A stretch of DNA of 64,000 nucleotides, from IMG/VR virus record IMGVR_UViG_3300026290_000001. One strand, written 5' to 3'. This stretch comes from a virus. The notes below the pieces were generated by a model. The model did not search any database. It was given only the letters and a program-made list of their open reading frames with translations, and was not told the DNA's origin. The translations under genes and the position numbers were made by a program. This document shows positions 11,688 through 59,644 of the stretch, in pieces (the stretch's first letter is position 1; each line of letters opens with the position of its first letter).

Positions 11688-11747
11688 TAAATATCACCTC
11701 CTCATTAATTAAAAATAGGACTATATATAATTTTTATATTAATAATA

Positions 11748-12128
11748 TTAACTAATATTAATTGTAAGTGTTACGGTAAGAAGCCAGTTTCCACCGGATT
11801 TTGTGCCTAAATTTTCCACCTTCCTATTCAACATAACTCCTCCACTAGAAGCATTAAAAACTCCCCATTCCTGCCATGCAAAATTAGCATCAGTAGTTCC
11901 AAAACTAGATTTAAATACTAACTGATTATTAGTTCTTGTAGGGAAAGTGGCTTCCATGCCCTTTCTTACTTTGTTAGAACTTGCTTGTAAATCAATCTGT
12001 GAAGCTGCAAAAGCAGTAGTAGAATCACCGACTCCGATATGCGAATTTGTCGAATTAAAGAATACGGGTGAATCATCATTAATTATACAAGCTGCTATAA
12101 AATCTCTACCACTATTTGTTAATGCCAT
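11748..12128 (-). CDS. conserved phage tail-associated protein (function unknown)
   Basis: 126 aa with the pattern MALTNSGRDFIA..IGVGDSTTAF..Q.DLQA..NKVRK..ANFAWQEWGVFN..GGVMLNR, recalled from prophage fibre clusters. No named family assigned. Confidence 0.45.
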   Translation of the reverse strand: MALTNSGRDFIAACIINDDSPVFFNSTNSHIGVGDSTTAFAASQIDLQASSNKVRKGMEATFPTRTNNQLVFKSSFGTTDANFAWQEWGVFNASSGGVMLNRKVENLGTKSGGNWLLTVTLTINIS

Positions 12129-12192
12129 TTTTATAATTCCTCCTTAAATTTATATTTGTAAAATAATAAATAATTTAATAAATATTTAAATA

Positions 12193-12372
12193 TTAAATAT
12201 TAAAACCCATATCTTTTAAATTATCTTCTGATGCCATAAAATCATCTTCAGATATAATAACTTCAATGGGTTTTACCAAACCTTTATCAATTTGTTCCTG
12301 TGTTGCCCAATCAGGATATTTTTCTAATCTGAGCGTTGCTTTCATGCTAATTCCCATTTTTTCATTATTCAT
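12193..12372 (-). CDS. small hypothetical protein (59 aa)
   Basis: Not in the ORF track. ATG at 12370-12372 downstream of AAGGAGG; translates MNNEKMGISMKATLRLEKYPDWATQEQIDKGLVKPIEVIISEDDFMASEDNLKDMGFNI*. Confidence 0.4.
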   Translation of the reverse strand: MNNEKMGISMKATLRLEKYPDWATQEQIDKGLVKPIEVIISEDDFMASEDNLKDMGFNI

Positions 12373-12435
12373 AAAATCTAATAATTACCTCCTTATTTTT
12401 CTAGTATATTTATATTAATAAAATAATTAATATCT

Positions 12436-12942
12436 TTATTCTTGATAGACGAACCAAATGTCCCCATCCTCACCGTCTTCATTACTAGGTTGTACAGTAG
12501 AAAATATAAAATGGTGTGCAGAAGTTTGTATTATATCTTCAAGTGTTTCTTTAATATCATAAGAACCACTACCATTAGATTGAAAACTACTATAAATCCT
12601 ACTTGCGGGTATATAAACTCCACCACTACCATAAAAAGAAAATTGTAATATACTTCCACTTACATCAGGATGAAAATAAACGTATCCATATACATAATCT
12701 ACTTTATATGTACCAATTTTACTTTCTGTGTCTAATGTAGGAAAACCATCAACAATTTCATACCACTGGTAAGTTTCCAATCCAAAATTACCCATGACCT
12801 GAACTTTATTTTGCCTATGCGGAATTTCTGATAATATTACTAATCCATTTATTATTTTTTTATATTCACTTAATGAAACTAAAGGTTGCTCATTATTACC
12901 TCTTCGTATTGAAATAAAAGGATCATAAAAAATTTGATTCAA
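12436..12942 (-). CDS. tail/baseplate-associated protein
   Basis: TTG start after GGAGGTG. 168 aa with YKVDYVYGYVYFHPDVSG, resembling N-terminal anchor domains of fibre/baseplate proteins. Call rests mainly on position. Confidence 0.45.
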   Translation of the reverse strand: MNQIFYDPFISIRRGNNEQPLVSLSEYKKIINGLVILSEIPHRQNKVQVMGNFGLETYQWYEIVDGFPTLDTESKIGTYKVDYVYGYVYFHPDVSGSILQFSFYGSGGVYIPASRIYSSFQSNGSGSYDIKETLEDIIQTSAHHFIFSTVQPSNEDGEDGDIWFVYQE

Positions 12943-13104
12943 AATTTATCACCTCCAACCTAATTTTTCAAAAAATAGAAAAATCAAAAATGTTCAAAAA
13001 TTTATCTTCTGTTTTCTCTTGTTTTCTTCCATTTACTCTGTTTTTCAAGCACAAAATTTGAATAAAAGGAATATTTTATTGTTGAGCCAAGAACACTCGT
13101 GACT

Positions 13105-14397
13105 TCAGTCATGAGATGAATTGGCTCTGTTCTGTTCATATATAATCCATGATTTTCTTGCATTAATTCTTTGCATGTTAGATATTTTCGGTGTCTTCAT
13201 ACCTCTGGGTGCATTACTAAAATCTATTTTTTCACCATCTATACCCATAAGAATGGCATAACCCGTAGACATTCTACCTTTAATAAAATATTCATTACCT
13301 ATATACCTTACTTTATCAAACTTCCTAAATCCTTCTATTTTACCTGTAGGTATCTTCTGATGACTTCTTACTCCTTTTGCCTGTTGGTAATCGCCTTTAG
13401 GGATACACTTTTTTAATACAGCTTTTTCAGTTTTAAAGCTTACATCAATTAACCCTATATCTTCAATATTATTTAAACAGGCAATAGCTACAGCATCGTA
13501 GTAATGCTCTTTTGGTAATCCCATTAGCTGTCTATGTTCTTTGGTAATAAATCCAAAGGTTTCTTTTGCATTTGGTAGCTGTCTTAATAATTGTTGTCTT
13601 ATACTATTCATCTGTGTTGTGTGTTTTAATTGTCCTTTAATTTTACCATTCTTCTTTAATTTAATTCCTCCTTTGTGCAAACTATTATGACAAGTTTTAC
13701 AAAGTGTAATTAAATTTTCTGCATCATCTGAGCCACCATTTTTTCTAAAAACTATATGATGTACCTCTAATCTGCTGTCTTTACTTTTTCCTTTGCAATA
13801 CTGGCAAATATATTTATCTCTACTTAATACATAAGCTTTAGTATTAGCAAATCCATAATTAGTTCCTTTTTGATAAAGCCATTTATTACTTAATACTGCT
13901 GGATTTTTTAAAGCATGTGGGTCAAATGTTGCTGTTTCTATTATTATATTTGTAATGGGCATTATTGATTTTGCAAAATCAATTTCTTTTAAGTGTGAAT
14001 TAATTTTACTTGTCATTGTAGGAGAAAATCTATCTTTTTTAATGCTGTTTTTCCTATTATTAAATCTAGGTTCCCTATATCTAGTTTTCCTATTCCTTCT
14101 AGTTCTCCTATATTTAGCTCTTTTGTCCATTTTGTCAGATATATCATTTCTAATTTCTACTTCTGATATATAATACACTTCATTTTCGTCATTTGCTACT
14201 GCACTTCCTATTTTACTACTACCAGTATCAATTCCTAAAGTTAAATCTTGTGTATAGTCTGTAGCATGATATAGTAATTTAATTGTAAATGGAGTTCTTC
14301 TTATGCATTTTGCTTTACCATCTTTTAACAATAATCTTGCTATTGCTGGTTTACAAGGCATTAAAGGACTCCCATCTTCATTAATTACATAAACCAT
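13105..14397 (-). CDS. iscB: IscB RNA-guided endonuclease (PLMP-RuvC-bridge helix-HNH-RuvC)
   Basis: Domains in order: PLMP (SPLMPCKPAIARLLLKDGKA), RuvC-I (LGIDTGSSKIG), Arg-rich bridge helix (RAKYRRTRRNRKTRYREPRFNNRK) and RuvC-II (IIIETATFD). Then HNH (CQYCKG..EVHHIVFRKNGGSDDAENLITLCKTCHNSLH), RuvC-III (EHYYDAVAIA) and a C-terminal beta domain (FDKVRYIGNEYFIKGRMSTGY). Confidence 0.9.
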   Translation of the reverse strand: MVYVINEDGSPLMPCKPAIARLLLKDGKAKCIRRTPFTIKLLYHATDYTQDLTLGIDTGSSKIGSAVANDENEVYYISEVEIRNDISDKMDKRAKYRRTRRNRKTRYREPRFNNRKNSIKKDRFSPTMTSKINSHLKEIDFAKSIMPITNIIIETATFDPHALKNPAVLSNKWLYQKGTNYGFANTKAYVLSRDKYICQYCKGKSKDSRLEVHHIVFRKNGGSDDAENLITLCKTCHNSLHKGGIKLKKNGKIKGQLKHTTQMNSIRQQLLRQLPNAKETFGFITKEHRQLMGLPKEHYYDAVAIACLNNIEDIGLIDVSFKTEKAVLKKCIPKGDYQQAKGVRSHQKIPTGKIEGFRKFDKVRYIGNEYFIKGRMSTGYAILMGIDGEKIDFSNAPRGMKTPKISNMQRINARKSWIIYEQNRANSSHD

Positions 14398-14681
14398 AAA
14401 ATCAAATCCTTTCGGATAAATACTCTGCTTAAAAGCAGGTTATGCGTATCTATATACTATTACCATATATAGAATTCGTCCTCATCTCGACAATGATAAA
14501 ATAGCTTATATGTATATCACACCGAGCCTTACCCTCCAACTCTACTTAGTGATATACGATAGAGCAATGGTCTGATGCGTCAACCAAAGGTATCATAACT
14601 ATTCTATCGTAGTATAAATTTCTCTATACTAAGTCTGGTGAACTTAGACTTTAGAAGCCTCCGACTTTAGTCGGGGGTAGT
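14398..14681 (-). ncRNA. candidate IscB omega-RNA scaffold
   Basis: Non-coding and visibly GC-richer than its surroundings, directly upstream of iscB. Minus-strand helices: CCCCCGAC/GUCGGAGG, AAGUCU/AGACUU, long-range CUACGAUAGA/UCUAUCGUA, CUGCU/AGCAG, and AUCC-GAAA-GGAU just before the start codon. Confidence 0.6.
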
Positions 14682-14927
14682 TCACTCTATTTCAGGATTG
14701 ATAGATAAATCATCTTTGCTTGTACTATTTACATTAGATAAATTATCTTCATTGGACAAATCATCATTAATAATTTGACTTAATTCGTCTATTTTAGAAC
14801 TTAATTTGATAATCTCTATCTGATACATATTATTTTGTAAACATAAAGTGACTACATCTAAGGGCAAATTACTATTGTTTATTAACTCTGCCAGTTTAAT
14901 ATTAAAATCACTTATAATAAAAATCAC
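14682..14927 (-). CDS. hypothetical protein
   Basis: 81-aa acidic ORF in the minus-strand tail array. Its TGA stop (14682-14684) directly abuts the omega-RNA-like region. Confidence 0.4.
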   Translation of the reverse strand: MIFIISDFNIKLAELINNSNLPLDVVTLCLQNNMYQIEIIKLSSKIDELSQIINDDLSNEDNLSNVNSTSKDDLSINPEIE

Positions 14928-29296: not shown

Positions 29297-29321
29297 ATTA
29301 AATACCTCCAATATATTTATT

Positions 29322-29768
29322 TTAATAATATATAAAAATCTCTGTGCGAGGCCACTCTTTGTCATAGCCACATTTCAAAGTTAAACTTGTTAAATGTAAA
29401 GAATCATCATCAATTATTAATCCTGATTCAGCAATACCGTCTAAAATAAATTTAGGGACAGTATTGTCACAATCTTTACGGATTTTGGTTTTGAAGTAAC
29501 TAACAAATGTCATTTCACACTGTTCTATTTTTTTATTTGTAAGTTTGTTTTCTTCTACAAACCAGATTATGAAATCTTTCCATTTTTGTTTTAAATCATT
29601 CATTTGAGGACGTTTCATTATCATCCATTTATTGATAGATGGATGAGTAGGTTTATCAATAGGAATTTTTTTACGTTTTGGATATTTAGCAAAATAATAT
29701 TTATTGTATTTTTCTAAAACATTATTATCTATAATTAGTTTTATTTCTGAAATAATAAATTCCTCCAA
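29322..29768 (-). CDS. RusA-like Holliday-junction resolvase (tentative)
   Basis: KPTHPSINKWM parallels the RusA PPSxNxYY segment. RKDCDNTVPKFILDGIAESGLIIDDDSL parallels [27 protein letters not shown] of E. coli RusA. Confidence 0.5.
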   Translation of the reverse strand: MEEFIISEIKLIIDNNVLEKYNKYYFAKYPKRKKIPIDKPTHPSINKWMIMKRPQMNDLKQKWKDFIIWFVEENKLTNKKIEQCEMTFVSYFKTKIRKDCDNTVPKFILDGIAESGLIIDDDSLHLTSLTLKCGYDKEWPRTEIFIYY

Positions 29769-36761: not shown

Positions 36762-36802
36762 AAATAATTACTATAAAATTATATTGATAATTTATAATTT
36801 AA

Positions 36803-37801: not shown

Positions 37802-37838
37802 TTAATTTATTCCTCCTTTATTTATATTAATAGATTAA

Positions 37839-46206: not shown

Positions 46207-46258
46207 AAATTAATCTCCTTTAATTCATTTATATTTATTTTAATAATTTAATTAAAAT

Positions 46259-47255: not shown

Positions 47256-47331
47256 TGGAGCCGAGTATAGGATTTGAACCCATAATCTGTTGTTTACAAG
47301 ACAACTGCCTTATCAATTTGGCTAACCCGGC
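47256..47331 (-). tRNA. tRNA-Thr (anticodon UGU), CCA encoded
   Basis: Minus strand folds by hand as GCCGGGT-TA-GCCA..AGGC-A-GTTGT-CTTGTAA-ACAAC-AGATT-ATGGG-TTCAAAT-CCTAT-ACTCGGC-TCCA. It has a 7-bp acceptor stem, a TTCAAAT T-loop and an anticodon loop with U33 followed by UGU. Confidence 0.85.
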
Positions 47332-47533: not shown

Positions 47534-47920
47534 TTATTCTTTTTCAATCAAAATCTTTTTCTTTTCAGGTCTATCTAAAATTAAAGTAATAAAAGTTAAA
47601 CCATTTTTACTTTTAACTTTTATTTTTTCAATCTCATTCATAATACTATCAGCAATGGGTAATTCAAAATATGTGTCATAAGTATATCCTTCAACCTCAG
47701 TTGAACCACTTACTTTCAGGCCAAAGTTTGTTTCTTCAACCTTTACATCACTAGGATCAATACCAATCGTTTTACAAACACACATATAGGTTTTATCGTC
47801 TTTTTTGCTCCAGTATGTAGGAAGCATGTCCTTCACAATTGAATTAAAAACTAATTTTCTAGGCTTTCCAAAACCTAAAGTAAATAAATCCTCAAAAACA
47901 TCATCAAAAATCCTACTCAT
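47534..47920 (-). CDS. Hsp20/alpha-crystallin-like small heat-shock protein
   Basis: Layout P.Y..kkDDKTYMCVCKTIGIDPSDVKVEE..LKVSG....Y...FELP..I....I.VKSKNGLTFITL matches the ACD beta-sandwich pattern. Confidence 0.55.
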   Translation of the reverse strand: MSRIFDDVFEDLFTLGFGKPRKLVFNSIVKDMLPTYWSKKDDKTYMCVCKTIGIDPSDVKVEETNFGLKVSGSTEVEGYTYDTYFELPIADSIMNEIEKIKVKSKNGLTFITLILDRPEKKKILIEKE

Positions 47921-48017
47921 AAAAATTCCTCCTTAAAATAATTTTAAAAAATATTGATAAAGTGGAATACCACATTTATCCTAAAAAATAAATAATAAAA
48001 TAATTTTAATTTTTATA

Positions 48018-48227
48018 TTAATAACCTAAAAAATATTCCTCCTCATCTATTTTAAATTCTTCTCCATTTTTAATTGCTAAATATTTTTTAAATTTAAACT
48101 CATCCACATATTTCTTTTTTCGCTTGCTTTTCTTTTTTACACTTGTAGTTACCCAATTTTTATTTGTTTCTTTAAGGATACCTAAATCTATCATTTCCTG
48201 AAATTGTGCTTTTGTTATTTGGATCAA
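48018..48227 (-). CDS. hypothetical protein
   Basis: 69-aa lysine-rich ORF followed by a hairpin and U-run (about 47955-47995). Confidence 0.4.
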   Translation of the reverse strand: MIQITKAQFQEMIDLGILKETNKNWVTTSVKKKSKRKKKYVDEFKFKKYLAIKNGEEFKIDEEEYFLGY

Positions 48228-48380
48228 AGTTAATCTATAACTCCTTTATTATTTATTGTAATAAAAAATAAAAACTAATAAACATATCGACCAAATATTT
48301 ATTAGCAATATTTATATTGATACTATATTCATTACATACAAATACTTATTTTTTTAAATAGTGTTGATATATTGGGATTG

Positions 48381-49202
48381 TTAAGGATTTTCTATTACTT
48401 TAGCAGGTCTATATTTATCTTTATAATTATGCCATGCTTTTCTCTGCCATTCTAATTGTTTTTCCCTCCAACAACTCCTACAAAATTTTCTTCTATTAGA
48501 TGTTGCTTTTATTAATTTTCCACATTCATTACAATTAATAATTTTTGGATTACCATTATACAAATCAAAGTAATATCCAATATTATCAAAGGTAGTTATT
48601 TCAAAAACTACTATTCCATTTTCCTTGATATTATTCATAAATATAAGATGAATTTTCCCCTTCATTCTAACATCAACCAATCCTAAAATCTCTAATTCAT
48701 TAATTATGGCATTTATTTTATACTCATTATTAGATATTTTAGACACTTCTAATATCTCATTATATGTATTTTGATTACCACTTATATAATTATATTTTAA
48801 AACATTTCCGTATTTTAATTTATGTATTTCTTTATATATCTTCATTTCTACTAACAAAACAAACAGAATTTTTTTATAATTATACTCTATATCTAAATTA
48901 TTAATGTATTCAATTTCTTCGTTTGTTATAGGAATACTATCAATAATTATTAAAGGGTTATCTTTTCTACCTCCTTTTTTGAGTGCAGTATTAATTTGTT
49001 TGAAATATAAAACATCATTGAAATTAACTATATACTTCTTGCAAAATTCATATAATTTTTCTTTTCGTTGTTTAGGTTTTATGCCAAGTTTTTTCCAATA
49101 TTTAACTAACAAAACCAATTCATAATTATGACGTTCAGTTAAAAATCCATGTTGTTCAATTTGTTTTGCATATTCTTCTTCATTGTATTTTTCTTGAATC
49201 AA
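48381..49202 (-). CDS. hypothetical protein with C-terminal zinc ribbon
   Basis: CNECGKLIKATSNRRKFCRSCW at the C-terminus. Lies directly downstream of the RNA polymerase gene (4-nt overlap). Confidence 0.4.
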   Translation of the reverse strand: MIQEKYNEEEYAKQIEQHGFLTERHNYELVLLVKYWKKLGIKPKQRKEKLYEFCKKYIVNFNDVLYFKQINTALKKGGRKDNPLIIIDSIPITNEEIEYINNLDIEYNYKKILFVLLVEMKIYKEIHKLKYGNVLKYNYISGNQNTYNEILEVSKISNNEYKINAIINELEILGLVDVRMKGKIHLIFMNNIKENGIVVFEITTFDNIGYYFDLYNGNPKIINCNECGKLIKATSNRRKFCRSCWREKQLEWQRKAWHNYKDKYRPAKVIENP

Positions 49203-52003
49203 ATAATCACTTCTTCCAACTTGTACTTTTTATTCAAGTAAACAATACCCCCTTCTTTATTAGGCATGGGAAAAAATATAGATTCTTTTGTGTTTGATTT
49301 AATATTTGAAAAAATATACTTACCAAAGGAATTCCATAAAATATCTTTGTTTGAACTTTTATATTCACAATAAAATATTTCAACTAAATAATTAGTTAAT
49401 TCATATGCGTATGAACATATTTCAAACATTCTACTTTTAAAGTCATCATAAATATTATTTACAATACGATCAGATTCTTCATCAAATTGCTCTTTGTTGG
49501 CATTTTGATTAATACCCATAGTATTCAAGTCTTTTAATTCTTTCATAAATTTTTTATACTCATTTAATACTTTCTGATAGGTTTCTTGATTTTTAGGAAT
49601 ATCATTTTTCATATATAATTTATACAAATCACCTATTTTACTTGTTTTTAATTTACTTTTAATATCAAAATCAACATTTTCAATATGTTTACACAATAAA
49701 TTCATTACACTGTCACTATCAATTACTGGTAAAAATCTATAATATGCATCCACAAAAGACTGTTCTTTTTCATTACAATTTTCCTTAATTAATAGTTCAT
49801 TTAATGTTAATCCAAATTTTTGCTGACTAGACAAATCGTTACTTTTGACATATTTTTTATATTTATTATAGGTATTTTTATAAAGATGAATAAAAAAATA
49901 TGGATGTTTATCCAATAATATTTTATTTAAAAATTCCTTTTCTTTTTTAACTTTTTCATCATCATCTTTATAAATTTTTTGCCTTTCAATCCAAATCTTA
50001 GGAATGCCCTTAACTTTTTTACCTATTTTTGCTTTATCAATTTGAGCAGATTGAAGTTTCGTACACATTTTTAATCTATTTATCAATGTTTGATATTCCA
50101 AACTTTCTTTATTAAAAAGAGGGAGTAAGGCATAAGCACTTGTACTTTTATTTGTTATAGAGCCTATAGTGGAACCAAAGGCGAAAAGATCAGCTTTATA
50201 TAAATCTTCTTCTGTAAATACCATAGATATAGATTTAGGTGCATCATAAACCACTGGCAACTCATCTTGAAATATTGAATTTAATATTGTTTGATCAGAA
50301 GTAGTTGCAATAATATCAAAATCCCAATCACTTCCAGCCCAATTAAGAGTTTCATAACCATGTATATTTACTATTACTCCACCATCATCACAATACTTAT
50401 ACCATTTATTTAATTTATCATGATTAATTAAATTTAATTTCAAATGTTCTGATTTATAAGTAAGTGGTGCTCTCATTGAATCTACGATACAAACATTTTT
50501 TTTATTCCAATAATTACAATAATACTCTTTTTCTTTAAGCAATCCAGTAACCTTTTGCCCGCAAATATGTTGCATCATAGCATAGGGATCACTTACTAAA
50601 ACCTGAAAATTTCCATCTAAAATAATTTCACCAAGACAACCTCTTTTTATGATATTGTTAGTATATTTATAAACTTTATCTCTGATATATTTATCATTTT
50701 TTAATTCATGATTAACTATCAAACTTTTTAACCAATAATTATTACTATACTTTAAAAAATATTGAATACTTTCTTGAGTTATATTTTCTCCTAATAAAAA
50801 TAATAACGTATAATATATATTATCAAAATTGACCCCAGTAACCCAATCAACAAAAGGAGTACAAATCTTCTTAATATCTTTTTGGTTTAAATCCAAAGTC
50901 TGTAAAAATTGATAATTCATTTTTAATATATCATTAGGTTTTTTAGGAGAAGTTAAACTAACACCCCATTTTAAATCATTCATCTCGCAATTATGTATAT
51001 ATTCTTCTAAACTACCAAACGCATTCCAAAGTTTAAATTGACTTTCCGATACAACCACATCGATATCCCTTAAATCAACCTGTATTGGATTATTATTGTC
51101 TTTGTATATAGTATTTATTATATAATTACCATGATTTTCATTTTCACAATATTCATCTATATCAAATACGCAGAGCATCCCTTTCAGAAAATTCTGCCTG
51201 ACACAAAATTGACCAGGAATATAATCTAATCCTAATTCTTCTGCCCATTCTTTAGCTTTACTTGGTTTAATCAACCCTTGACCATCAAACCTATTAAAAC
51301 TCAACTCTACTTCTTTAATTACAATATCATCATCTTTATTTTCTTCTGTTTCAGTTACAAAATTAACATTAACTTTTTGCTTAATTTCATAATCAGGCAC
51401 TACACAAAATTTAGGCGTACTTACTATTTTTGTAGATGAACCCGACAATCCTTTATATGCATTGTATTTAGAAGGGCATAGGGGTATATTTTTATCTCTA
51501 TTATTATCTAAAATTTCATTAAGTTGATTTAAAATTTTCTCGTTGCAAAATACCACTGTTGAAACTCTGGATTGACTGGCAGATGATGATAATCTAAAAT
51601 ACCGTTCAGAATTTAATAATAATCCATTTTTAAATAAATAATTATAATGTGAGTTATGTTCCATTACTATAGTTATGTACTCAGGAATAAAAAGCATATC
51701 TAAAATATTATTTTGTAATTCTATTATTCTACTTGAGTTTTCCTTTGAATATATTTGTTTTTTTAACCTATCTCTTTCTTTATACCATTGTTCAAGTTGT
51801 ATATAATTAATTTCTTTACCAGTTATTTTTCTAATACTTCTAAGAATTTGATTGTCTGATAAAGCAATTAACTCACCATTTTGTTTAGCTTGTTGTGGAG
51901 TTAATTGTATATCATACCCATATTCTTTAAGCCTAGATGATTTAAATTTCATAGTATATAATTGTCTATTTATCAATATTTTTTGCCTCCAATAAATCTT
52001 CAT
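49199..52003 (-). CDS. single-subunit two-barrel RNA polymerase, YonO / cellular-RdRP-like
   Basis: GQFCVRQNFLKGMLCVFD parallels the RdRP Q.R...aKGml.vD barrel motif. VDSMRAPLTYKSEH parallels v.RnP.lhpgD. NWAGSDWDFDIIATT supplies a DxDxD metal-binding loop (coding 50315-50329). The start is uncertain (ATG at 52003, TTG at 51979 or ATG at 51952). Confidence 0.75.
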   Translation of the reverse strand: MKIYWRQKILINRQLYTMKFKSSRLKEYGYDIQLTPQQAKQNGELIALSDNQILRSIRKITGKEINYIQLEQWYKERDRLKKQIYSKENSSRIIELQNNILDMLFIPEYITIVMEHNSHYNYLFKNGLLLNSERYFRLSSSASQSRVSTVVFCNEKILNQLNEILDNNRDKNIPLCPSKYNAYKGLSGSSTKIVSTPKFCVVPDYEIKQKVNVNFVTETEENKDDDIVIKEVELSFNRFDGQGLIKPSKAKEWAEELGLDYIPGQFCVRQNFLKGMLCVFDIDEYCENENHGNYIINTIYKDNNNPIQVDLRDIDVVVSESQFKLWNAFGSLEEYIHNCEMNDLKWGVSLTSPKKPNDILKMNYQFLQTLDLNQKDIKKICTPFVDWVTGVNFDNIYYTLLFLLGENITQESIQYFLKYSNNYWLKSLIVNHELKNDKYIRDKVYKYTNNIIKRGCLGEIILDGNFQVLVSDPYAMMQHICGQKVTGLLKEKEYYCNYWNKKNVCIVDSMRAPLTYKSEHLKLNLINHDKLNKWYKYCDDGGVIVNIHGYETLNWAGSDWDFDIIATTSDQTILNSIFQDELPVVYDAPKSISMVFTEEDLYKADLFAFGSTIGSITNKSTSAYALLPLFNKESLEYQTLINRLKMCTKLQSAQIDKAKIGKKVKGIPKIWIERQKIYKDDDEKVKKEKEFLNKILLDKHPYFFIHLYKNTYNKYKKYVKSNDLSSQQKFGLTLNELLIKENCNEKEQSFVDAYYRFLPVIDSDSVMNLLCKHIENVDFDIKSKLKTSKIGDLYKLYMKNDIPKNQETYQKVLNEYKKFMKELKDLNTMGINQNANKEQFDEESDRIVNNIYDDFKSRMFEICSYAYELTNYLVEIFYCEYKSSNKDILWNSFGKYIFSNIKSNTKESIFFPMPNKEGGIVYLNKKYKLEEVII

Positions 52004-54102: not shown

Positions 54103-54188
54103 AGAATTTCACTCTAAATTCAACGTGAATATGTTTTATGAAGTTCTATATGGTTAGAGTAGCAAAAGCGTTTTTAGAGTGAAATTCT
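54103..54188. repeat. perfect 16-bp inverted repeat with 54-nt spacer
   Basis: AGAATTTCACTCTAAA (54103-54118) pairs with TTTAGAGTGAAATTCT (54173-54188). The right arm overlaps the methyltransferase stop codon. Confidence 0.8.
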
Positions 54189-55014
54189 ATTGATTAGATA
54201 GTAATTTTTCTTTATGTTCCCTTACACGTTTAATTGCTAAATTAAAATATTGATCATGTGGTTCACTCAGACTCCATTCAAAACCTATGTAATTTCTTTC
54301 AGTATTTAAACAAGCTATCGCTGTTGTGCCTGAACCTATGCAATTATCTAAGACTAAATCTCCTTCATTTGTATATGTTTTAATTAGATATTCAAATAAT
54401 TTTACTGGTTTTTGAGTGGGGTGTGGTAATTTTTCTTTAGAATTTGAATTAACTATAGGATTATATATTACAGTTGATGGATTTTTTAATTTTGCATTGT
54501 ACACATCATAACTTCTTCCAGCATAATCTGTATTAAAAACAATTTCATTATCTTTTCTTTTTGAGATAGAACTTCTAAAATTAATATTATTATTTTCTTG
54601 CATTTGTTTCATTCTTTCGCTTTTACGTTCTATCATTTGTCTATTATATGTATATTTATTTTTTGCAAATATTAATATATTTTCATGATATTTTAAATGT
54701 CTATATTTTGCATTTGCAAAATTACTCGCTCTATCTTTTTCCCATATTAGTTCTTCTTTAAACCAATCAATATTACTACAAATTAATTTGCTTGTAAATG
54801 GTTGACTTGCTGTTAATACTATAGCACCATTATCTTTTATAATTCTTTTATACTGTTCCCAAAGTTTATCAAAAGAAATTAAACTATCCCATTTTGCTAT
54901 TGTAGTTCCATAAGGTAGATCACATAAAATCATATCTATACTTTTATCAGGTAATAAACACATACCATTTTCACCAATACAATCTTCGTTATAAATAGTA
55001 TTTAATTTAATCAA
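54187..55014 (-). CDS. DNA methyltransferase (beta-class N6A/N4C type), orphan
   Basis: Motif IV CDLPYGTT comes first, then HPTQKPVKL and motif I DNCIGSGTTAIAC. No adjacent restriction gene. Confidence 0.85.
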   Translation of the reverse strand: MIKLNTIYNEDCIGENGMCLLPDKSIDMILCDLPYGTTIAKWDSLISFDKLWEQYKRIIKDNGAIVLTASQPFTSKLICSNIDWFKEELIWEKDRASNFANAKYRHLKYHENILIFAKNKYTYNRQMIERKSERMKQMQENNNINFRSSISKRKDNEIVFNTDYAGRSYDVYNAKLKNPSTVIYNPIVNSNSKEKLPHPTQKPVKLFEYLIKTYTNEGDLVLDNCIGSGTTAIACLNTERNYIGFEWSLSEPHDQYFNLAIKRVREHKEKLLSNQ

Positions 55015-55089
55015 TTATGTATTATTCCTCCTATATTTATATTACTAAAATAATACTACGACTCAAAATTAAAAAATTATTTCTTACTC

Positions 55090-55413
55090 TTAATCTTTTT
55101 TCTCTTTCTTTTCCTTAGATTTTTTTGCCTTTTGTAATCTTTCTCCCATTTCTTTCTTTTGAGCCTCAGTTAACTTTTTCTTTTTGGTTGGTGCTCTAAA
55201 TGAAATCAACTTCTTATCACAAACAAATTCTTTTCCCACTAATTCATTATCTTCATCAAATTGATCACTAACATGCTGATATGATTCAGGATACTGTTTA
55301 CAAAGTTTATCCAGTTTGTTTAAATCTGCACGAATAAAAGTTATTATTTGTGCTTTTTTAGAATCTTCATCAATCCCTACGCAAGTATAACGCTCCATTT
55401 TTTCTAATGCCAT
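55090..55413 (-). CDS. hypothetical lysine-rich protein
   Basis: 107 aa with a basic C-terminal tail (KKKKLTEAQKKEMGERLQKAKKSKEKKEKKD). Confidence 0.4.
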   Translation of the reverse strand: MALEKMERYTCVGIDEDSKKAQIITFIRADLNKLDKLCKQYPESYQHVSDQFDEDNELVGKEFVCDKKLISFRAPTKKKKLTEAQKKEMGERLQKAKKSKEKKEKKD

Positions 55414-55454
55414 ATGTATAAATTCCTTCTTTCATTTTTATATTAATAAAATAA

Positions 55455-56204
55455 TTAAAATTCCACTAATCTATTTTTCGCTATTTCACAATATTTTTCT
55501 TCTAATTCAATTCCAATACATTTACGTTTAAGATTTCGTGCCGCCAATAAAGTTGTTCCTGAACCACAGGTAAAATCTAAAATAAGATCGTTTTCATTTG
55601 TGTATGTATTAATTAAATATTCCATTAATTCTAATGGTTTTTGTGTAGGATGAAATAAATTATTATTTGGATTTGCAAAATTTAATATATTTTTAGGATA
55701 ACCTTTAGCATTACTATTTCCAAAATGCTTTTCTTTCCCAAAAGTATATTCTCCATCCACTTTATTTTCTCTACTTGGTCTATTATTATTAAATTCTCCA
55801 TAAATTAACCCTTGCGGATTATAAATGCATTGATTTTTATAAAAAACTAAAACATCTTCTATTGCTCTCATTGGTTGTTTTTTAGCATTTAAATGACCAC
55901 TTGGTTTAGTTTTTATCCATTTCCAATCATATTTATATTCTTTAATATTACTAATTCTTAAAAAACTACTAAAAGGTTCTCCTCCAAACAATAATGTAGG
56001 TGTTGTATTTTTTGTTAATTTATGTAATCTATCCCACATGTCATTAAATTTGATAATTTCATCCCATTTACATTTAGTAGTACCGTATGGTGGGTCAGTA
56101 ATTATTGCATCAAATTTAATACCTTTCTCAATAATCTTATCCATTACCTCTAAACAATCACCTTGAAATAATCTTATGTATTCGTCTTTATAGTATAATT
56201 TCAA
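55455..56204 (-). CDS. DNA methyltransferase (beta-class), tandem paralogue 1
   Basis: ITDPPYGTT, HPTQKPLEL and LDFTCGSGTTLLAA. TTG start. The N-terminal ~48 aa and C-terminal ~66 aa are near-identical to the gene at 56249-57034, while the centre differs. Confidence 0.9.
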   Translation of the reverse strand: MKLYYKDEYIRLFQGDCLEVMDKIIEKGIKFDAIITDPPYGTTKCKWDEIIKFNDMWDRLHKLTKNTTPTLLFGGEPFSSFLRISNIKEYKYDWKWIKTKPSGHLNAKKQPMRAIEDVLVFYKNQCIYNPQGLIYGEFNNNRPSRENKVDGEYTFGKEKHFGNSNAKGYPKNILNFANPNNNLFHPTQKPLELMEYLINTYTNENDLILDFTCGSGTTLLAARNLKRKCIGIELEEKYCEIAKNRLVEF

Positions 56205-56248
56205 TTTATGTAAATATATCTCCTTTCATTTTTATATTAATAAAATAA

Positions 56249-57034
56249 TTAAAATTCCACTAATCTATTTTTCGCTATTTCACAATATTTTTCTTCTAAT
56301 TCAATTCCAATACATTTACGTTTAAGATTTCTTGCCGCTAACAATGTTGTCCCTGAACCACAGGTAAAATCTAAAATAAGTTCGTTTTCTTTTGTGTATG
56401 TATTAATAAGGTATTCTAATAGTTCAATTGGTTTTTGAGTCGGATGTAATTTTTTCCCTGACATACTAGCGTTGCTTAAAGTATAAATACTTGTTGGATG
56501 TCTATCTTTATATTCTTTATGCCCCAAGTCTTTTATGGTATGTCCTTCTCTTAATGTGCTATTTCTTGAACCATAAAATGTTTTATTAACTTTTTTTATA
56601 TCATCTCGTTTTGTTTTTTGAGGATAATAATTCATTTCATTACCTTTTGAGAAAACTGCTTTTGCTTTACTAAAAATTAAAATATTTTCATGTACTCTAC
56701 CTACTTGAAAATTCATCATTTGAAAATTAGATGGTTTTACTTTATCCCAAATAATTTCATATCTAAATAGTTGAGGATTACTCATAATTAAAGCACTCGT
56801 AAAAGGTTGAGAACCATTCAATACTATTGCACCTTTATCTTTGATTAATTGAGTAATTTTATCCCACATCTTATCAAAAGGAATTATCGTGTCCCATTTA
56901 CATGCTGTAGTACCATAAGGTGGATCAGTTATTATCGCATCAAATTCAATACCTTTCTCAATCAATTTATCCATCACTTCTAAACAGTCACCTTGAAACA
57001 ATCTTATGTATTCATCTTTATAGTATAATTTCAT
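56249..57034 (-). CDS. DNA methyltransferase (beta-class), tandem paralogue 2
   Basis: ITDPPYGTT, HPTQKPIEL and LDFTCGSGTTLLAA. The last 43 aa are identical to paralogue 1. Confidence 0.9.
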   Translation of the reverse strand: MKLYYKDEYIRLFQGDCLEVMDKLIEKGIEFDAIITDPPYGTTACKWDTIIPFDKMWDKITQLIKDKGAIVLNGSQPFTSALIMSNPQLFRYEIIWDKVKPSNFQMMNFQVGRVHENILIFSKAKAVFSKGNEMNYYPQKTKRDDIKKVNKTFYGSRNSTLREGHTIKDLGHKEYKDRHPTSIYTLSNASMSGKKLHPTQKPIELLEYLINTYTKENELILDFTCGSGTTLLAARNLKRKCIGIELEEKYCEIAKNRLVEF

Positions 57035-57107
57035 TTATGTAAAAATTTCACTTCCTTTTTATATTTATATTTATAAAATAATAAAATCCTAAAATCTAAT
57101 AAATAAA

Positions 57108-57293: not shown

Positions 57294-57377
57294 TTGGTTA
57301 TTTAGTTACTTAATTACTTGTATTTATTATAGCAGGGAAGAGGTGAAAAATCAAGGGTATTTATATTAAGAATTTAA

Positions 57378-58139: not shown

Positions 58140-58156
58140 ATAGTATAAAATCTCCT

Positions 58157-58351
58157 TTAATAGTTTTTATATTTTTCTTTAAGTAAAAGAAGATCACTAA
58201 CTGCATTATTAAATGCTGTAGTTTCAACAAATGAATATTTAATGATTTCTTTTCGAGAATTATTATCAATTTCATTAAATTTATAATATCTAAATCCTAA
58301 AAATGAAAGTGCTTCGGCCAGATATTTTTTATGTATTACCCGATAAGTCAT
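58157..58351 (-). CDS. hypothetical protein
   Basis: 64-aa ORF preceded by RBS AAAGGAG. It is the first gene downstream of the operator cluster. Confidence 0.4.
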   Translation of the reverse strand: MTYRVIHKKYLAEALSFLGFRYYKFNEIDNNSRKEIIKYSFVETTAFNNAVSDLLLLKEKYKNY

Positions 58352-58392
58352 GTTTTGCAGATACTCCTTTATTGTTAAAATTTTTATTGCAT

Positions 58393-58480
58393 CACCATTT
58401 TGGTGTCAAAATCTTAGGTTTGAATGTAAAGTAACACCATTTTGGTGATGCAATACGCAGAAAGTAACACCAAAAAGGTG
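58393..58480 (-). promoter_or_regulatory. three CACC-N5-GGTG operator-like palindromes overlapping a TTGACA -35
   Basis: CACCATTTTGGTG at 58393-58405 and 58435-58447, and CACCAAAAAGGTG at 58468-58480. Centres are 42 and 33 bp apart. On the minus strand, TTGACA (58404-58409), 17 nt, then TAAAAA overlaps site 1. Confidence 0.5.
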
Positions 58481-58602
58481 ACAAGAACACAGTGAATATA
58501 TTATTAAATAGTATATATTATTAAATTAATTATAAATTAATATTTTTTGCTTACGCAATAACCAAATTGTTTTATGTATATATTTATATTAATGAAATAA
58601 TA

Positions 58603-59526
58603 CTAAGGAATAATACCGTATTGTTCATATAAATGTTTTTGCGGAGCAAATTCACCGAAATATTTCTTTTCTGCTTCTAGTCTTGCTTTGATTGCATCAT
58701 CTTTATTTATAAATGAACCCAAATATATTTGTTGTTTATTACATGTTATTTTAGCAACCCATTTATTATTTTGATTAAAAGAAACACCAATAAGTCCAGA
58801 AAATTTAGATACTTCTTTATTCATTCCATTTTGACTTTTAGTTGCAATTCTTAAAAATTCTTTTCTATTATCATTTACATTATGGAATATATGATCAACT
58901 TCTACTTTTTTATCATCTAAACAATTCATTACAAATCTATGCATAAAGACAATACGAGTTTCGTTTAAGTGTGTTATTAAATATCCATCTTTATCAGTAA
59001 ACCAATAATAATTTTTTATTTTATGATAATCTTCTAAATCAAAATAAAATTCTTCTCCTTTTAAAGTGTATCCAATTCCGTATTCTCCAGATAAATCATA
59101 TGTATTATATTTTTTATTAGTTTTACTTACTATTTCTTTTTGTAAACAACCGCAAGATTTAGTTTTATTTGCTCTTAATCTATTACCTGAAACTAATATT
59201 AAACTATTTTCTCCTCCGCAATCACATTGACACCACCATTGAATTTCTTTAAAACCACTTGGAGAAATATAATCTTCTCCTCGTTTTAAAACTGTCAATC
59301 TTTCAAATTTTTGTCCTGTTAAATCTTGAAAATATTTAGATGTACAACCACATGATTGAGTATTGCCTGATTTTAAATTACCTCCTTTAACAATAATTTC
59401 TTTTCCATCACAATCACATTTACATAACCATTGAGTAGAACCTTGTACATTGTTTTCTGCTCTTTCTATCACTGTTAATTTACCAAACTTTTGTCCAATT
59501 AAATTTTTAACTTTACCTTTAGGCAA
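58603..59526 (-). CDS. HNH homing endonuclease with AP2 DNA-binding domain
   Basis: Two N-terminal GQKF(G/E)(K/R)LTV..CxCDC modules. HNH_3 core VEVDHIFHNVNDNRKEFLRIATKSQN. AP2-like GVSFNQNNKWVAKITCNKQQIYLGSF..DDAIKARLEAE. TTG start after GAAGGAGG. Confidence 0.85.
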   Translation of the reverse strand: MPKGKVKNLIGQKFGKLTVIERAENNVQGSTQWLCKCDCDGKEIIVKGGNLKSGNTQSCGCTSKYFQDLTGQKFERLTVLKRGEDYISPSGFKEIQWWCQCDCGGENSLILVSGNRLRANKTKSCGCLQKEIVSKTNKKYNTYDLSGEYGIGYTLKGEEFYFDLEDYHKIKNYYWFTDKDGYLITHLNETRIVFMHRFVMNCLDDKKVEVDHIFHNVNDNRKEFLRIATKSQNGMNKEVSKFSGLIGVSFNQNNKWVAKITCNKQQIYLGSFINKDDAIKARLEAEKKYFGEFAPQKHLYEQYGIIP

Positions 59527-59644
59527 TAGTAAACCTCCTTCAAATATATAATATATTTATATTAATAAATTAATTTTATATTTTCATATTTTCATATTTT
59601 CATAATTATCACCTCGCAATCTATATAATTAATAGTATTATAAT

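What the first reader, a model, noticed from the sequence alone, without database searches (positions are those of the whole stretch)
11733..59566. Exact 11-mer ATTAATATAAA recurs seven times, always on the minus strand in short intergenic spacers
Seen in sequence:
- The plus-strand string TTTATATTAAT occurs exactly at 11733, 12409, 37821, 55437, 56231, 58583 and 59556.
- All seven copies are intergenic and in the same orientation.
- Six copies lie 20-46 nt upstream of a minus-strand start codon. The genes served include the major capsid gene, a fibre gene, two methyltransferases and the HNH gene.
- One-mismatch versions occur before other genes, for example near 55040, 57070, 12150, 46230, 42745 and 48325.
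- The conservation extends to roughly ATTATTTTATTAATATAAA on the minus strand, and this often begins at the upstream gene's stop codon.
- My rough estimate for a specific A/T-only 11-mer in this composition is about one chance occurrence per strand.

Inference: this is a phage-specific cis element. It could be the promoter of the YonO-like RNAP, or a middle/late promoter. In some spacers it sits only 3 nt from the Shine-Dalgarno sequence, which would give almost leaderless transcripts. An RNA-processing or re-initiation signal is therefore the alternative.
Basis: partly seen in the sequence, partly recalled or inferred. Interest (0 to 1): 0.6.

Follow-up and report, generated by a model that had tools for sequence, protein, structure and literature searches.

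The report
Repeated AT-rich phage promoter-like motif
A roughly 22-base AT-only sequence (core AATATAAA) recurs about 15 times just upstream of genes in this SPbeta-like Clostridial phage, always pointing with the gene, and is most likely a phage-specific promoter lacking a -35 box; which RNA polymerase reads it is unresolved.

Summary
TTTATATTAAT occurs 8 times, not 7; the missed copy is at 48012. All copies share one orientation and none lies inside a coding body. About 0.2 copies are expected from intergenic composition. Two copies (55437, 56231) sit in a 244-nt duplication, so 7 are independent.

A matrix built from these copies finds about 15 sites on the gene strand. The consensus is tTtaaTTAttTTATTAATATAAAtAT.

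The motif is not a sigma-A promoter:
- It has no -35 box and no TG extension.
- TATAAA is enriched but TATAAT is not.
- Canonical TTGACA-17-TATAAT promoters exist elsewhere in the window.

The core AATATAAA is the top non-Shine-Dalgarno word upstream of genes across this phage clade. Relatives show 13 matrix hits on the gene strand and 0 on the other. The same method finds TTGACA/TATAAT in Staphylococcus phage K, finds no strong AATATAAA enrichment in phiC2, and no TATAAA at all in BUCT082.

In the capsid spacer the 11-mer is conserved (0.92) well above its flanks (0.73).

My best reading is a phage-specific promoter without a -35 box (about 0.5). Assigning it to the YonO-like RNAP is plausible but unsupported. 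SPbeta and BUCT082 lack the motif, while phages with RNAPs only 27-29% identical keep it before the capsid gene.

The parts
59556..59566 (-). Exact 11-mer ATTAATATAAA, 29 nt upstream of the HNH gene start. It lies about 70 nt downstream of a canonical TTGACG-17-TATAAT.
58583..58593 (-). Exact 11-mer, just after the HNH stop codon and 231 nt upstream of the next ORF. It lies upstream of an operator-bearing sigma-A-like promoter.
56231..56241 (-). Exact 11-mer, 26 nt upstream of methyltransferase gene 55455-56204. It lies inside the 244-nt duplication.
55437..55447 (-). Exact 11-mer, 23 nt upstream of the 107-aa ORF 55090-55413. It is the duplicate of the 56231 copy.
48012..48022 (-). It overlaps the stop codon of ORF 48018-48227 and lies 91 nt upstream of ORF 47534-47920. 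Its position corresponds to where the SPbeta late operon starts, downstream of the RNAP operon.
37821..37831 (-). Exact 11-mer, 19 nt upstream of the major capsid gene and 4 nt from GGAGG. It is conserved in orthologous spacers of relatives.
12409..12419 (-). Exact 11-mer, 36 nt upstream of ORF 12193-12372.
11733..11743 (-). Exact 11-mer, 45 nt upstream of ORF 10470-11687.
60606..60616 (-). Variant ATTAATCTAAA (18 bits) that abuts the SD of tyrosine-recombinase-like ORF 59714-60592. This is the weakest accepted site.
57360..57370 (-). Variant CTTAATATAAA (21-22 bits). It ends 5 nt before the -35 of a sigma-A-like TTGATT-17-TGcTATAAT.
57064..57074 (-). Variant ATAAATATAAA (27 bits) upstream of methyltransferase gene 56249-57034.
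55036..55046 (-). Variant AGTAATATAAA (24 bits), 4 nt from the SD of methyltransferase gene 54187-55014.
46234..46244 (-). Variant ATTAAAATAAA (25 bits), overlapped by ATAAATATAAA at 46228-46238, upstream of ORF 45898-46206.
29316..29326 (-). Variant ATTAAAATAAA (20 bits) upstream of the ATG at about 29290, the likely true start of ORF 28733-29290. An identical site is present in the Clostridium sp. MAG relative L270.
12149..12159 (-). Variant ACAAATATAAA (20 bits) upstream of ORF 11748-12128.
48311..48321 (-). Weak variant ATCAATATAAA (9 bits on the full matrix) upstream of ORF 48018-48227. Relative L127 carries AGTAATATAAAtat at the corresponding place.
2015..2025 (+). The only good plus-strand copy, AGTAATATAAA (16 bits). 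It follows the last plus-strand gene and precedes an AT hairpin. A second plus-oriented copy lies upstream of a plus-strand gene just left of the window (L189 9126-9153).
49199..52003 (-). YonO-like single-chain two-barrel RNAP gene, the candidate reader of the motif. No motif copy lies upstream of its operon (53997 down to 48018).
48381..49202 (-). 273-aa ORF whose start overlaps the RNAP stop by 4 nt and which co-occurs with the RNAP in relatives. The model shows a winged-helix-like fold plus a C-terminal four-cysteine cluster. It is a speculative DNA-binding partner of the RNAP.
59637..59665 (-). Canonical sigma-A-type promoter TTGACG-17-TATAAT. It serves as a contrast class showing what host-type promoters look like in this phage.
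58380..58480 (-). TTGACA-18-AAAAAT overlapped by CACCAAAATGGTG palindromes. This is an operator-controlled early promoter and is distinct from the motif.

Best explanation
The motif is a phage-specific promoter class that lacks a -35 box.

**Anatomy.** An asymmetric AT-only element of about 22 bp (TTA-N2-TTATTAATATAAA-N-AT, clade-wide core AATATAAA) sits in the spacer between one gene's stop codon and the next gene's Shine-Dalgarno sequence (SD). It always points with the gene.

**Proposed action.** It directs transcription to start within a few nucleotides of its 3' end. The resulting mRNAs carry the SD at or very near their 5' end. In Firmicutes a 5'-proximal SD is known to stabilise mRNA (from my own knowledge: the cryIIIA STAB-SD and the SP82 5' stabiliser).

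**Distribution.** It gives individual genes or small gene groups their own start point. Examples are the capsid gene, the tail and fibre region, three DNA methyltransferases, the HNH gene and the first late genes. The RNAP operon and the operator-controlled early promoter use ordinary sigma-A-type signals instead.

**Shown.**
- The enrichment, the strand lock and the length of the motif.
- The absence of a -35 box and of a TG extension.
- Conservation above flanks in relatives, and clade specificity.

**Inferred.**
- That it is a promoter at all.
- Where transcription starts.
- Which enzyme reads it.

**My split of the 0.5.**
For: **Non-random and intergenic.**
- 8 exact copies against about 0.2 expected in intergenic DNA, with 0 in 52.9 kb of coding sequence.
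- A matrix built from the 7 independent copies finds 7 further gene-strand sites above 12 bits, against 0.44 in composition-preserving shuffles.

**Directional.**
- The window has 15 gene-strand sites at 17 bits or more. The best plus-strand hit follows plus-strand genes.
- In the plus-strand gene block left of the window the copy is plus-oriented.
- In 393 kb of relatives there are 13 hits above 15 bits on the gene strand and 0 opposite.
- AATATAA occurs 36 times against 9 for its reverse complement in L270.

**Not a host-type promoter.**
- The best -35 match averages 2.5-2.9 of 6, against a background of 2.6. No site has a TG extension.
- TATAAA is enriched and TATAAT is not.
- Canonical TTGAC(G/A/T)-17/18-TATAAT-like promoters occur separately at 59665-59637, 58409-58380 and 57354-57326, and in relatives.

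**Method control.**
- The same k-mer test on Staphylococcus phage K returns TTGACA and CTATAAT as its top words, with TATAAA at expectation.
- phiC2 shows only weak AATATAAA enrichment, 5 against 1.9.

**Purifying selection.**
- In 15 capsid-upstream spacers the 11-mer columns have a majority fraction of 0.92 and the SD 0.97. Adjacent coding sequence and the SD-to-ATG spacer both score 0.73.
- L156/L158 keep ttttATTAATATAAA although everything upstream differs.

**Clade-wide core with phage-specific flanks.**
- L166 carries about 10 copies of (G/C)TAAAATATAAAA in 21 kb.

**Consistent with a phage-RNAP regulon.**
- There is no copy upstream of the RNAP operon.
- A copy at 48012 sits where the SPbeta late operon starts (PMC5467207).

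**Precedent.**
- The two single-chain two-barrel RNAPs of P23-45 each use a conserved repeated motif, one of them AT-rich (PMC10770324).

**No sigma factor found.**
- No sigma-like domain appeared in the window ORFs scanned, which were most of them.
Against: - No transcript 5' ends are available, so promoter function is purely inferred.
- In many sites TATAAA ends 0-5 nt from GGAGG. The start point must therefore lie within or just after the motif. That geometry is unproven for any candidate enzyme.
- In several relatives a motif copy lies right after the capsid stop codon and 3-10 nt before a GC hairpin with a T run. This is an odd place for a promoter unless the polymerase ignores hairpin terminators or the hairpin acts as a 5' stabiliser.

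**Against the YonO-like RNAP specifically.**
- In SPbeta YonO uses a single start site. The primers used to map it bracket a 190-nt stretch that is not AT-rich and has no matrix hit.
- BUCT082 (RNAP 55% identical) has 0 TATAAA in 25 gene-upstream regions.
- L129 (RNAP 89% identical) lacks the motif in the spacer orthologous to 55437.
- L156 and L167 (RNAP 27-29% identical) keep the motif before the capsid gene.
- Overall, motif presence tracks the AT-rich Clostridial host clade at least as well as it tracks RNAP similarity.
Confidence: 0.5

Rival explanations
1. The motif acts at the RNA level. It would be an endonucleolytic processing site, or a protein-binding or stability site, in long polycistronic late transcripts. 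Cleavage within AUUAAUAUAAA would release mRNAs whose 5' end lies just before the SD.
For: - TATAAA ends 0-5 nt from the SD in about a third of clade sites.
- Spacers often consist of nothing but stop codon, motif and SD.
- In SPbeta the whole late region is one YonO transcript (PMC5467207), so internal 5' ends could come from processing.
- Motif copies flank the capsid gene on both sides in several relatives.
- The strict same-strand orientation fits an RNA element just as well as a promoter.
Against: - About 22 nt of linear, structure-less AT-only conservation is long for a ribonuclease site. Known sequence-specific sites such as MazF or T4 RegB span 3-7 nt (my own knowledge).
- Exact copies at 48012 and 58583 are 91 and 231 nt from any start codon.
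- One copy sits directly upstream of a sigma-A-like -35 box.
- No Rfam family covers any site at gathering threshold.
Confidence: 0.2
2. The motif is an ordinary host sigma-A promoter read in another register. TAATAT would be the -10 hexamer, with A at -11 and T at -7, and AAA would be the discriminator. Its weakness from lacking a -35 box would be offset by the AT-rich upstream tract or by a phage activator. A Mor/HTH-like 199-aa protein is encoded just left of the window.
For: - Nearly all variants keep nAnnnT in that register: TAATAT, AAATAT, TAAAAT, CAATAT, TAATCT.
- The last base of TATAAA flips to T in close relatives L131, L135, L137 and L270.
- With this register the start falls 0-1 nt before (A)GGAGG at 37821, 55036 and 12149 (read from the sequences).
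- Motif presence follows the Clostridial host clade more than RNAP identity.
- There is a weak Mor-family hit at L189 3052-3651, E = 7e-4, below Pfam's cut-off.
Against: - There is no -35 box and no TG extension at any site.
- The AAA is as conserved as the putative hexamer. Sigma-A does not require that.
- TATAAT is not enriched.
- Relatives with TATAAAGGAGG would start inside the SD.
- By homology with SPbeta, the late structural genes should depend on the phage RNAP.
Confidence: 0.25
3. The motif is an operator for a phage repressor or regulator. The analogue would be the SPbeta repeated element (SPBRE), which is bound by the tyrosine-recombinase-like master repressor MrpR.
For: - SPbeta has a 15-bp repeat at about 10 intergenic sites bound by MrpR (PMC10516654).
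- The window encodes three tyrosine-recombinase-family ORFs.
- The centre of the motif holds an 8-bp palindrome, TATTAATA.
Against: - SPBRE sits at early promoters, including yonP. The present motif precedes the capsid, tail and fibre genes and is absent upstream of the RNAP operon.
- The conserved half is the asymmetric AATATAAA, and variants break the palindrome.
- Strict orientation is not expected of an operator.
- The SPbeta yonP promoter region gives no matrix hit.
- The window already has a separate, classical operator/promoter at 58380-58480.
Confidence: 0.05
4. The motif is a recombination linker or mobile regulatory cassette. The conserved spacer sequence would mainly serve as a homology patch for shuffling gene cassettes, as with the promoter-stem-loop cassettes of T4-type phages. 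This reading can coexist with promoter function.
For: - A 244-nt duplication joins methyltransferase 3' ends plus the motif.
- Motif-flanked accessory genes include three methyltransferases and the HNH gene.
- Mosaic breakpoints lie next to the motif in the capsid spacers of L133 and L156.
- Motif copies lie on both sides of the capsid gene in L136-L138.
Against: - 11-25 bp is short for efficient homologous exchange.
- Orientation and fixed proximity to the SD point to an expression function.
- Conservation of the same site across relatives with 68-98% capsid identity indicates selection on the sequence itself.
Confidence: 0.1
5. The motif is a compositional by-product: AT-rich spacers plus TAA stop codons plus the A-rich extended SD (AAAGGAGG).
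For: - The final AAA merges with the extended SD in some sites.
- A-rich words are generally commoner on the sense strand upstream of genes.
- Weak AATATAAA excess also appears in phiC2 and c-st, 5 against 1.9 in each.
Against: - Enrichment survives intergenic-only Markov models up to order 4 and per-spacer or 100-nt-block dinucleotide shuffles.
- The conserved block extends 15 nt or more upstream of the AAA.
- Two exact copies are far from any SD.
Confidence: 0.03

Closest known systems
Promoters of phage-encoded non-canonical two-barrel RNAPs. Examples: the AT-rich motif of P23-45 gp96 and the GC-rich motif of gp64 (PMC10770324); the phiKZ/AR9 non-virion RNAP promoters (my own knowledge).
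   Same: - A strongly conserved, multi-copy, oriented intergenic motif without a -35 box.
- AT-rich and lying close to the presumed start point.
- Found in a phage that encodes its own two-barrel RNAP.
   Different: - No start sites have been mapped here.
- No motif/RNAP co-variation has been shown.
- The only mapped YonO start (SPbeta) is single and lies in a region that is not AT-rich.
T4 late promoters (TATAAATA, read by gp55/gp33/gp45 with the host core enzyme; my own knowledge)
   Same: - No -35 box.
- A TATAAA core. By eye from the listing, 10 of the 16 sites read TATAAATA and 5 read TATAAAAA.
- Many copies, each in front of individual late genes including the capsid gene.
   Different: - Conservation here extends about 12 nt further upstream.
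- No gp55-like or other sigma-like protein was found in the ORFs scanned.
- The distance to the SD is too short for a -10 element at -13 to -6.
T7-type single-subunit RNAP promoters (about 23 bp, with TATA just before +1; my own knowledge)
   Same: - Similar length of about 22 bp and high conservation.
- A TATA element at the 3' end.
- A copy directly upstream of the major capsid gene.
   Different: The RNAP here belongs to the YonO/two-barrel family, which is unrelated to T7 RNAP. The resemblance is one of layout only.
SPBRE/MrpR operator system of SPbeta (PMC10516654)
   Same: A repeated intergenic element in an SPbeta-like phage that also encodes tyrosine-recombinase-like proteins.
   Different: - SPBRE marks early promoters. 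This motif marks late and accessory genes.
- This motif is asymmetric and strand-locked.
- There is no sequence resemblance to the SPBRE-containing yonP region.
Promoter-early stem-loop (PeSL) cassettes of T4-type phages (my own knowledge)
   Same: - A repeated promoter-like sequence, sometimes followed by a stem-loop.
- It flanks variable accessory genes and duplications.
   Different: - PeSLs carry sigma-70 early promoters.
- Here there is no -35 box.
- A stem-loop follows only the copies downstream of the capsid gene.

Membership tests
Sigma-70/sigma-A promoter | -35 hexamer (TTGACA-like) 16-18 bp upstream of the -10 hexamer | tested here: not met
   The best -35 match averages 2.5-2.9 of 6 in both possible registers, against a background of 2.6.
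Sigma-70/sigma-A promoter | -10 hexamer TATAAT with near-invariant T at the last position, or a TGn extension when the -35 box is absent | tested here: not met
   - 15 of 16 sites listed have A at the last position of TATAAA, and no site has TGn.
- TATAAT is not enriched upstream of genes, 4 observed against 6.2 expected.
- The alternative register TAATAT keeps A-11 and T-7, so this test is not fully decisive.
Sigma-70/sigma-A promoter | Transcription starts 6-8 nt after the -10 hexamer and still leaves a usable SD | tested here: inconclusive
   - With TATAAA as the -10 hexamer, the start falls inside the SD at many sites.
- With TAATAT as the -10 hexamer, it falls 0-1 nt before the SD in the window. 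It falls inside the SD in relatives with TATAAAGGAGG.
T4-type late promoter | TATAAATA element without a -35 box | tested here: inconclusive
   10 of 16 listed sites read TATAAATA and 5 read TATAAAAA. The -35 box is absent.
T4-type late promoter | Phage-encoded gp55-type sigma factor, with gp33 and a sliding clamp | tested here: not met
   No sigma-like domain was found in the Pfam, PHROGs or NCBIfam scans of the window ORFs tested, which were most of them. The 43 kb of the phage outside the window was only partly scanned.
Promoter of a phage-encoded two-barrel single-chain RNAP (YonO / P23-45 type) | The phage encodes such an RNAP | tested here: met
   ORF 49199-52003 is 55% identical to the BUCT082 protein and 24% to SPbeta YonO. 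Homologues carry PF05183.
Promoter of a phage-encoded two-barrel single-chain RNAP (YonO / P23-45 type) | Conserved multi-copy motif immediately upstream of mapped primary 5' ends | not testable with these tools
   The motif is conserved and multi-copy. No transcript data exist for this uncultured phage.
Promoter of a phage-encoded two-barrel single-chain RNAP (YonO / P23-45 type) | The motif co-occurs or co-varies with the RNAP lineage among relatives | tested here: inconclusive
   - Relatives with RNAP 61-89% identical carry the AATATAA[AT] core.
- BUCT082 (55%) and SPbeta have none.
- Phages with RNAP 27-29% identical keep the capsid copy.
SPBRE/MrpR-type operator | Located at early, repressor-controlled promoters | tested here: not met
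   Sites precede the capsid, tail, fibre and methyltransferase genes. None lies upstream of the RNAP operon, and a separate operator/promoter exists at 58380-58480.
SPBRE/MrpR-type operator | Bound by a tyrosine-recombinase-like repressor | not testable with these tools
   Three such ORFs exist in the window. Binding cannot be tested here.
Known structured RNA family (Rfam) | Match to a covariance model at gathering score | tested here: not met
   The only Rfam matches in the window are HEARO (14475-14685) and a tRNA. No match covers any motif site.

The most novel reading that the evidence does not exclude
The motif is the promoter of the YonO-type single-chain two-barrel RNAP in this Clostridial SPbeta-like clade. 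It would be recognised with the help of p273, the 273-aa protein whose gene overlaps the RNAP stop codon and which has a winged-helix-like fold and a four-cysteine cluster. Initiation would occur inside or just after TATAAA.

If true, this would be the first promoter consensus for the YonO family. It would also be the first candidate initiation factor for that family. Both have been open questions since YonO was described in 2017.
Probability: 0.2. Interest if true: 0.75.

Novelty: new member of a known kind. Interest (0 to 1): 0.5.

Why it matters
Phage-specific promoters are a familiar kind of element, so the motif as such is not a surprise. The context is what makes it useful.

- The 2017 paper that described YonO left open what promoter it recognises and whether it needs a factor (PMC5467207). 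I found no later paper in the searchable library that answers this.
- This phage clade offers about 15 near-identical candidate sites per genome.
- It also offers a conserved candidate DNA-binding partner (p273) next to the RNAP gene.
- Together these make the question directly testable in vitro: RNAP, with or without p273, on a 30-bp template.
- If the host polymerase reads the motif instead, it defines a late-promoter class without a -35 box in Clostridial phages. Such a class would help annotate transcription units in metagenomic phage genomes and help build expression tools for AT-rich Firmicutes.

Tried and rejected
- **Megablast of 10 kb against GenBank phages.** No match.
- **RNAP as a single query against GTDB genomes.** Nothing found.
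- **Motif matrix on the SPbeta yonO-yonK region and on 26 kb of BUCT082.** No hits.
- **Locating the SPbeta PYonO start site.**
  - The published primers place it 285-478 nt downstream of yonN.
  - I could not convert genome position 2225998 to record coordinates. The exact start is therefore unknown, and I saw only a non-AT-rich sequence there.
  - SPbeta and BUCT082 are 95% identical across this region, so no footprinting was possible.
- **Search for a phage sigma factor or gp55-like protein.** None was found in the ORFs scanned.
- **ORF 47534-47920 as a possible transcription factor.** I considered it because it is unusually conserved. I rejected it because the sequence reads like an alpha-crystallin small heat-shock protein (by eye only).
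- **Generic sigma-70 pattern scan.** It shows no excess over shuffles in this AT-rich DNA. It was useful only for the few 10-11 of 12 matches.
- **Translation-enhancer or 16S-complement idea.** Only the AAA next to GGAGG can pair with the rRNA 3' end. Two exact copies are far from any SD.
- **Methyltransferase target-site idea.** Rejected because the motif is exclusively intergenic and asymmetric.

Full report
**Observation**

The plus-strand string TTTATATTAAT occurs 8 times, not 7. The extra copy is at 48012. All copies share one orientation.
- Whole-window dinucleotide shuffles expect 1.28 copies.
- In the ~5.1 kb of intergenic DNA, Markov models of order 0-4 and 2000 per-spacer dinucleotide shuffles expect 0.14-0.54 per strand.
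- Observed counts are 8 forward, 0 reverse, and 0 in 52.9 kb of coding sequence.
- Copies 55437 and 56231 lie in a 244-nt, 91% identical duplication of two methyltransferase 3' ends plus the spacer. This leaves 7 independent copies.
- Distances to the next start codon are 45, 36, 19, 91, 23, 26, 231 and 29 nt.

**Extent of the motif**

Iterating a position matrix from the exact copies gives 16 minus-strand sites. The consensus is tTtaaTTAttTTATTAATATAAAtAT.
- Fifteen sites score at least 17 bits; the 16th (4984-5011) scores 13.8 on the re-derived matrix. The next best hit scores 10.9 or less.
- A matrix built only from the 7 independent copies finds 7 further minus-strand sites above 12 bits. 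Shuffles that preserve local composition give 0.44.
- The best plus-strand site (2003-2030, 16 bits) follows the plus-strand gene block.
- In the plus-strand replication and nucleotide-metabolism block left of the window, the one good copy is plus-oriented and upstream of a gene.
- Orientation therefore follows the direction of transcription.

**Genomic context**

The window matches IMG/VR contigs 3300009671_000358 and 3300009647_000134 exactly in the two genes used as queries and in the overlap checked. It is an SPbeta-like phage. Its features include:
- terminase, portal and a PF27364-family capsid protein;
- a YonJ-like phosphoesterase and a tRNA-Thr;
- three N6/N4 methyltransferases, an HNH protein and a CoiA-like protein;
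- a YonO-like RNAP at 49199-52003, which is 55% identical to the Bacillus phage BUCT082 protein and 24% to SPbeta YonO.

MAG bins place relatives in Clostridium sp., Tissierellaceae and other Clostridia.

Motif copies precede:
- the recombinase-like gene, the HNH gene and all three methyltransferases;
- a 107-aa ORF;
- the first genes after the RNAP operon;
- the capsid gene, a gene ahead of the tape-measure region, and three consecutive genes at 10.4-12.4 kb.

No copy precedes the RNAP operon (53997 down to 48018).

**Why it is not a host-type promoter**

- No -35 hexamer appears in either possible register, and no site has a TG extension.
- Upstream of the window's genes, AATATAAA occurs 10 times against 1.0 expected. 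TATAAT occurs 4 times against 6.2 expected.
- Canonical promoters exist separately:
  - TTGACG-17-TATAAT at 59665-59637;
  - TTGATT-17-TGcTATAAT at 57354-57326;
  - TTGACA-18-AAAAAT at 58409-58380, overlapped by CACCAAAATGGTG palindromes.
- Relatives also carry TTGACT-17-TATAAT in their early regions.
- As a control, the same k-mer procedure on Staphylococcus phage K returns TTGACA and CTATAAT as top words, with TATAAA at expectation.
- Clostridioides phage phiC2, which has no YonO-like RNAP, shows AATATAAA only 5 times against 1.9 expected. Phage c-st gives the same numbers.

**Relatives**

- Across 380 non-redundant gene-upstream regions from the window and about 60 related loci, AATATAA is the strongest over-represented 7-mer that is not part of a Shine-Dalgarno sequence (SD). 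It occurs 64 times against 20.5 expected.
- In the relatives alone it occurs 63 times, against 7 for its reverse complement.
- Matrix hits above 15 bits across 393 kb of relatives number 13 on the gene strand and 0 opposite.
- The flanks are phage-specific. L166 has about 10 spacers in 21 kb reading (G/C)TAAAATATAAAA. L186 and L187 (RNAP 61% identical) mix ATATAAT and ATATAAA.
- In the capsid-upstream spacer, relatives with 79-98% capsid identity keep ATTAATATAA[AT], apart from one-base variants in L131 and L161. L156 and L158 (68%) also keep it although everything upstream differs.
- Column conservation in that spacer is 0.92 for the 11-mer and 0.97 for the SD. It is 0.73 for the flanking coding sequence and 0.73 for the SD-to-ATG spacer.
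- The 29316 site is identical in the Clostridium MAG contig L270.

**Geometry**

- The hexamer TATAAA ends 0-5 nt from the SD core in about a third of clade sites. In the window the distance is 4 nt at 37821 and 55036.
- A sigma-type -10 reading of TATAAA would place the start inside the SD.
- The start must therefore lie in or just after the motif. This is the layout of T7-type and other non-sigma promoters (my own knowledge).
- Alternatively TAATAT is the -10 hexamer, and mRNAs begin right at the SD.
- A 5'-proximal strong SD is a known mRNA stabiliser in Bacillus (my own knowledge: the cryIIIA STAB-SD and the SP82 leader). Such short leaders are therefore plausible.
- An unexplained feature: in L135-L139, L145, L147, L150, L166, L175 and L270 a motif copy sits just after the capsid stop codon and 3-10 nt before a GC hairpin with a T run.
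- YonO lacks the flap domain that hairpin-dependent termination requires (PMC5467207). A phage RNAP might therefore read through, leaving the hairpin at the 5' end of the transcript. This is inference.

**Which polymerase?**

For the YonO-like RNAP:
- SPbeta late genes depend on YonO.
- The RNAP operon itself lacks the motif.
- The copy at 48012 sits where the SPbeta late operon begins.
- P23-45 shows that single-chain two-barrel RNAPs use conserved repeated motifs.
- The 273-aa ORF (p273) overlaps the RNAP stop codon by 4 nt and co-occurs with the RNAP in all relatives examined.
  - Its model has a mean pLDDT of 87.
  - It has four invariant C-terminal cysteines.

Against the YonO-like RNAP:
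- YonO in SPbeta uses one start site. The published primers bracket a stretch that is not AT-rich and has no matrix hit.
- BUCT082 has no TATAAA in 25 gene-upstream regions.
- L129 (RNAP 89% identical) lacks the motif in one orthologous spacer.
- L156 and L167 (RNAP 27-29% identical) keep the capsid copy.

The enzyme is therefore unresolved. Host RNAP with a phage activator remains a live option, and a weak Mor/HTH-like hit lies left of the window.

**Other readings**

- RNA processing fits the SD proximity and the SPbeta single-operon precedent. It fits poorly with a 22-nt unstructured conserved block and with copies far from any start codon.
- An SPBRE/MrpR-type operator (PMC10516654) is unlikely. 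SPBRE marks early promoters, whereas this motif marks late and accessory genes and is asymmetric.
- A role as a recombination patch may coexist with promoter function.
- Pure composition is excluded.

**Verdict**

This is a real, clade-specific, strand-locked expression signal. It is most likely a phage-specific promoter without a -35 box (0.5).

Noticed in passing
window 13105-14685 (-): A HEARO RNA (Rfam RF02033, 121.7 bits) at 14475-14685 lies next to a 430-aa RRXRR + HNH (IscB-like) ORF at 13105-14397. Together they look like an OMEGA/IscB-type element inserted in the tail-fibre region of the phage.
   Followed up: partly
[not shown]
   Followed up: partly
window 58380-58480 (-): Three CACC(A/T)5GGTG palindromes overlap a TTGACA-18-AAAAAT promoter upstream of the small ORF 58157-58351. 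The same boxes occur in relative L128. This looks like a classical repressor-controlled early promoter.
   Followed up: partly
window 59714-60592, 27164-28201, 5113-6117 (-): One phage window holds three tyrosine-recombinase-family ORFs, one of them in the middle of the tail gene region. The SPbeta master repressor MrpR is a recombinase-like protein, so one of these could be a regulator rather than an integrase.
   Followed up: no
window 55413-55656 and 56207-56450: A 244-nt direct duplication (91% identity) covers the 3' ends of two paralogous N6/N4 methyltransferase genes plus the downstream spacer. The IMG/VR contig 3300009671_000358 ends at about window position 56307, inside this repeat, so the repeat may have broken that assembly.
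   Followed up: partly
L001 (SPbeta) 3154-4834 and L002 (BUCT082) 7244-8961: The BUCT082 RNAP is only 25% identical to SPbeta YonO. Yet the 1.5-kb non-coding yonN-yonK region that contains the mapped YonO start site is 95% identical between the two phages. Two very different YonO-family enzymes therefore sit next to the same late leader.
   Followed up: partly
window 47534-47920 (-): A 128-aa ORF reads like an alpha-crystallin small heat-shock protein, judged by eye with no family hit. It is 76-77% identical in L147 and L173, whose capsids are only 44-71% identical to the window's. That is unusually strong conservation for this phage group.
   Followed up: no
relatives L135-L139, L145, L147, L150, L166, L175, L270, downstream of the capsid gene; window 36743-36800: A motif copy (AATATAA[AT]) sits directly after the capsid stop codon and 3-10 nt (16 nt in the window) before a GC-rich hairpin with a T run. 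None of my models fully explains this arrangement.
   Followed up: partly
L189 3052-3651 (+), about 6 kb left of the window: A 199-aa ORF has a weak C-terminal Mor/HTH match (E = 7e-4, below Pfam's cut-off). It lies in the replication and nucleotide-metabolism block alongside a RecD-like helicase, NrdD/NrdG and dUTPase. It is a possible late-gene activator.
   Followed up: no
window 47256-47331 (-): A phage-borne tRNA-Thr (anticodon TGT) lies between the first late ORF and the YonJ-like phosphoesterase gene.
   Followed up: no
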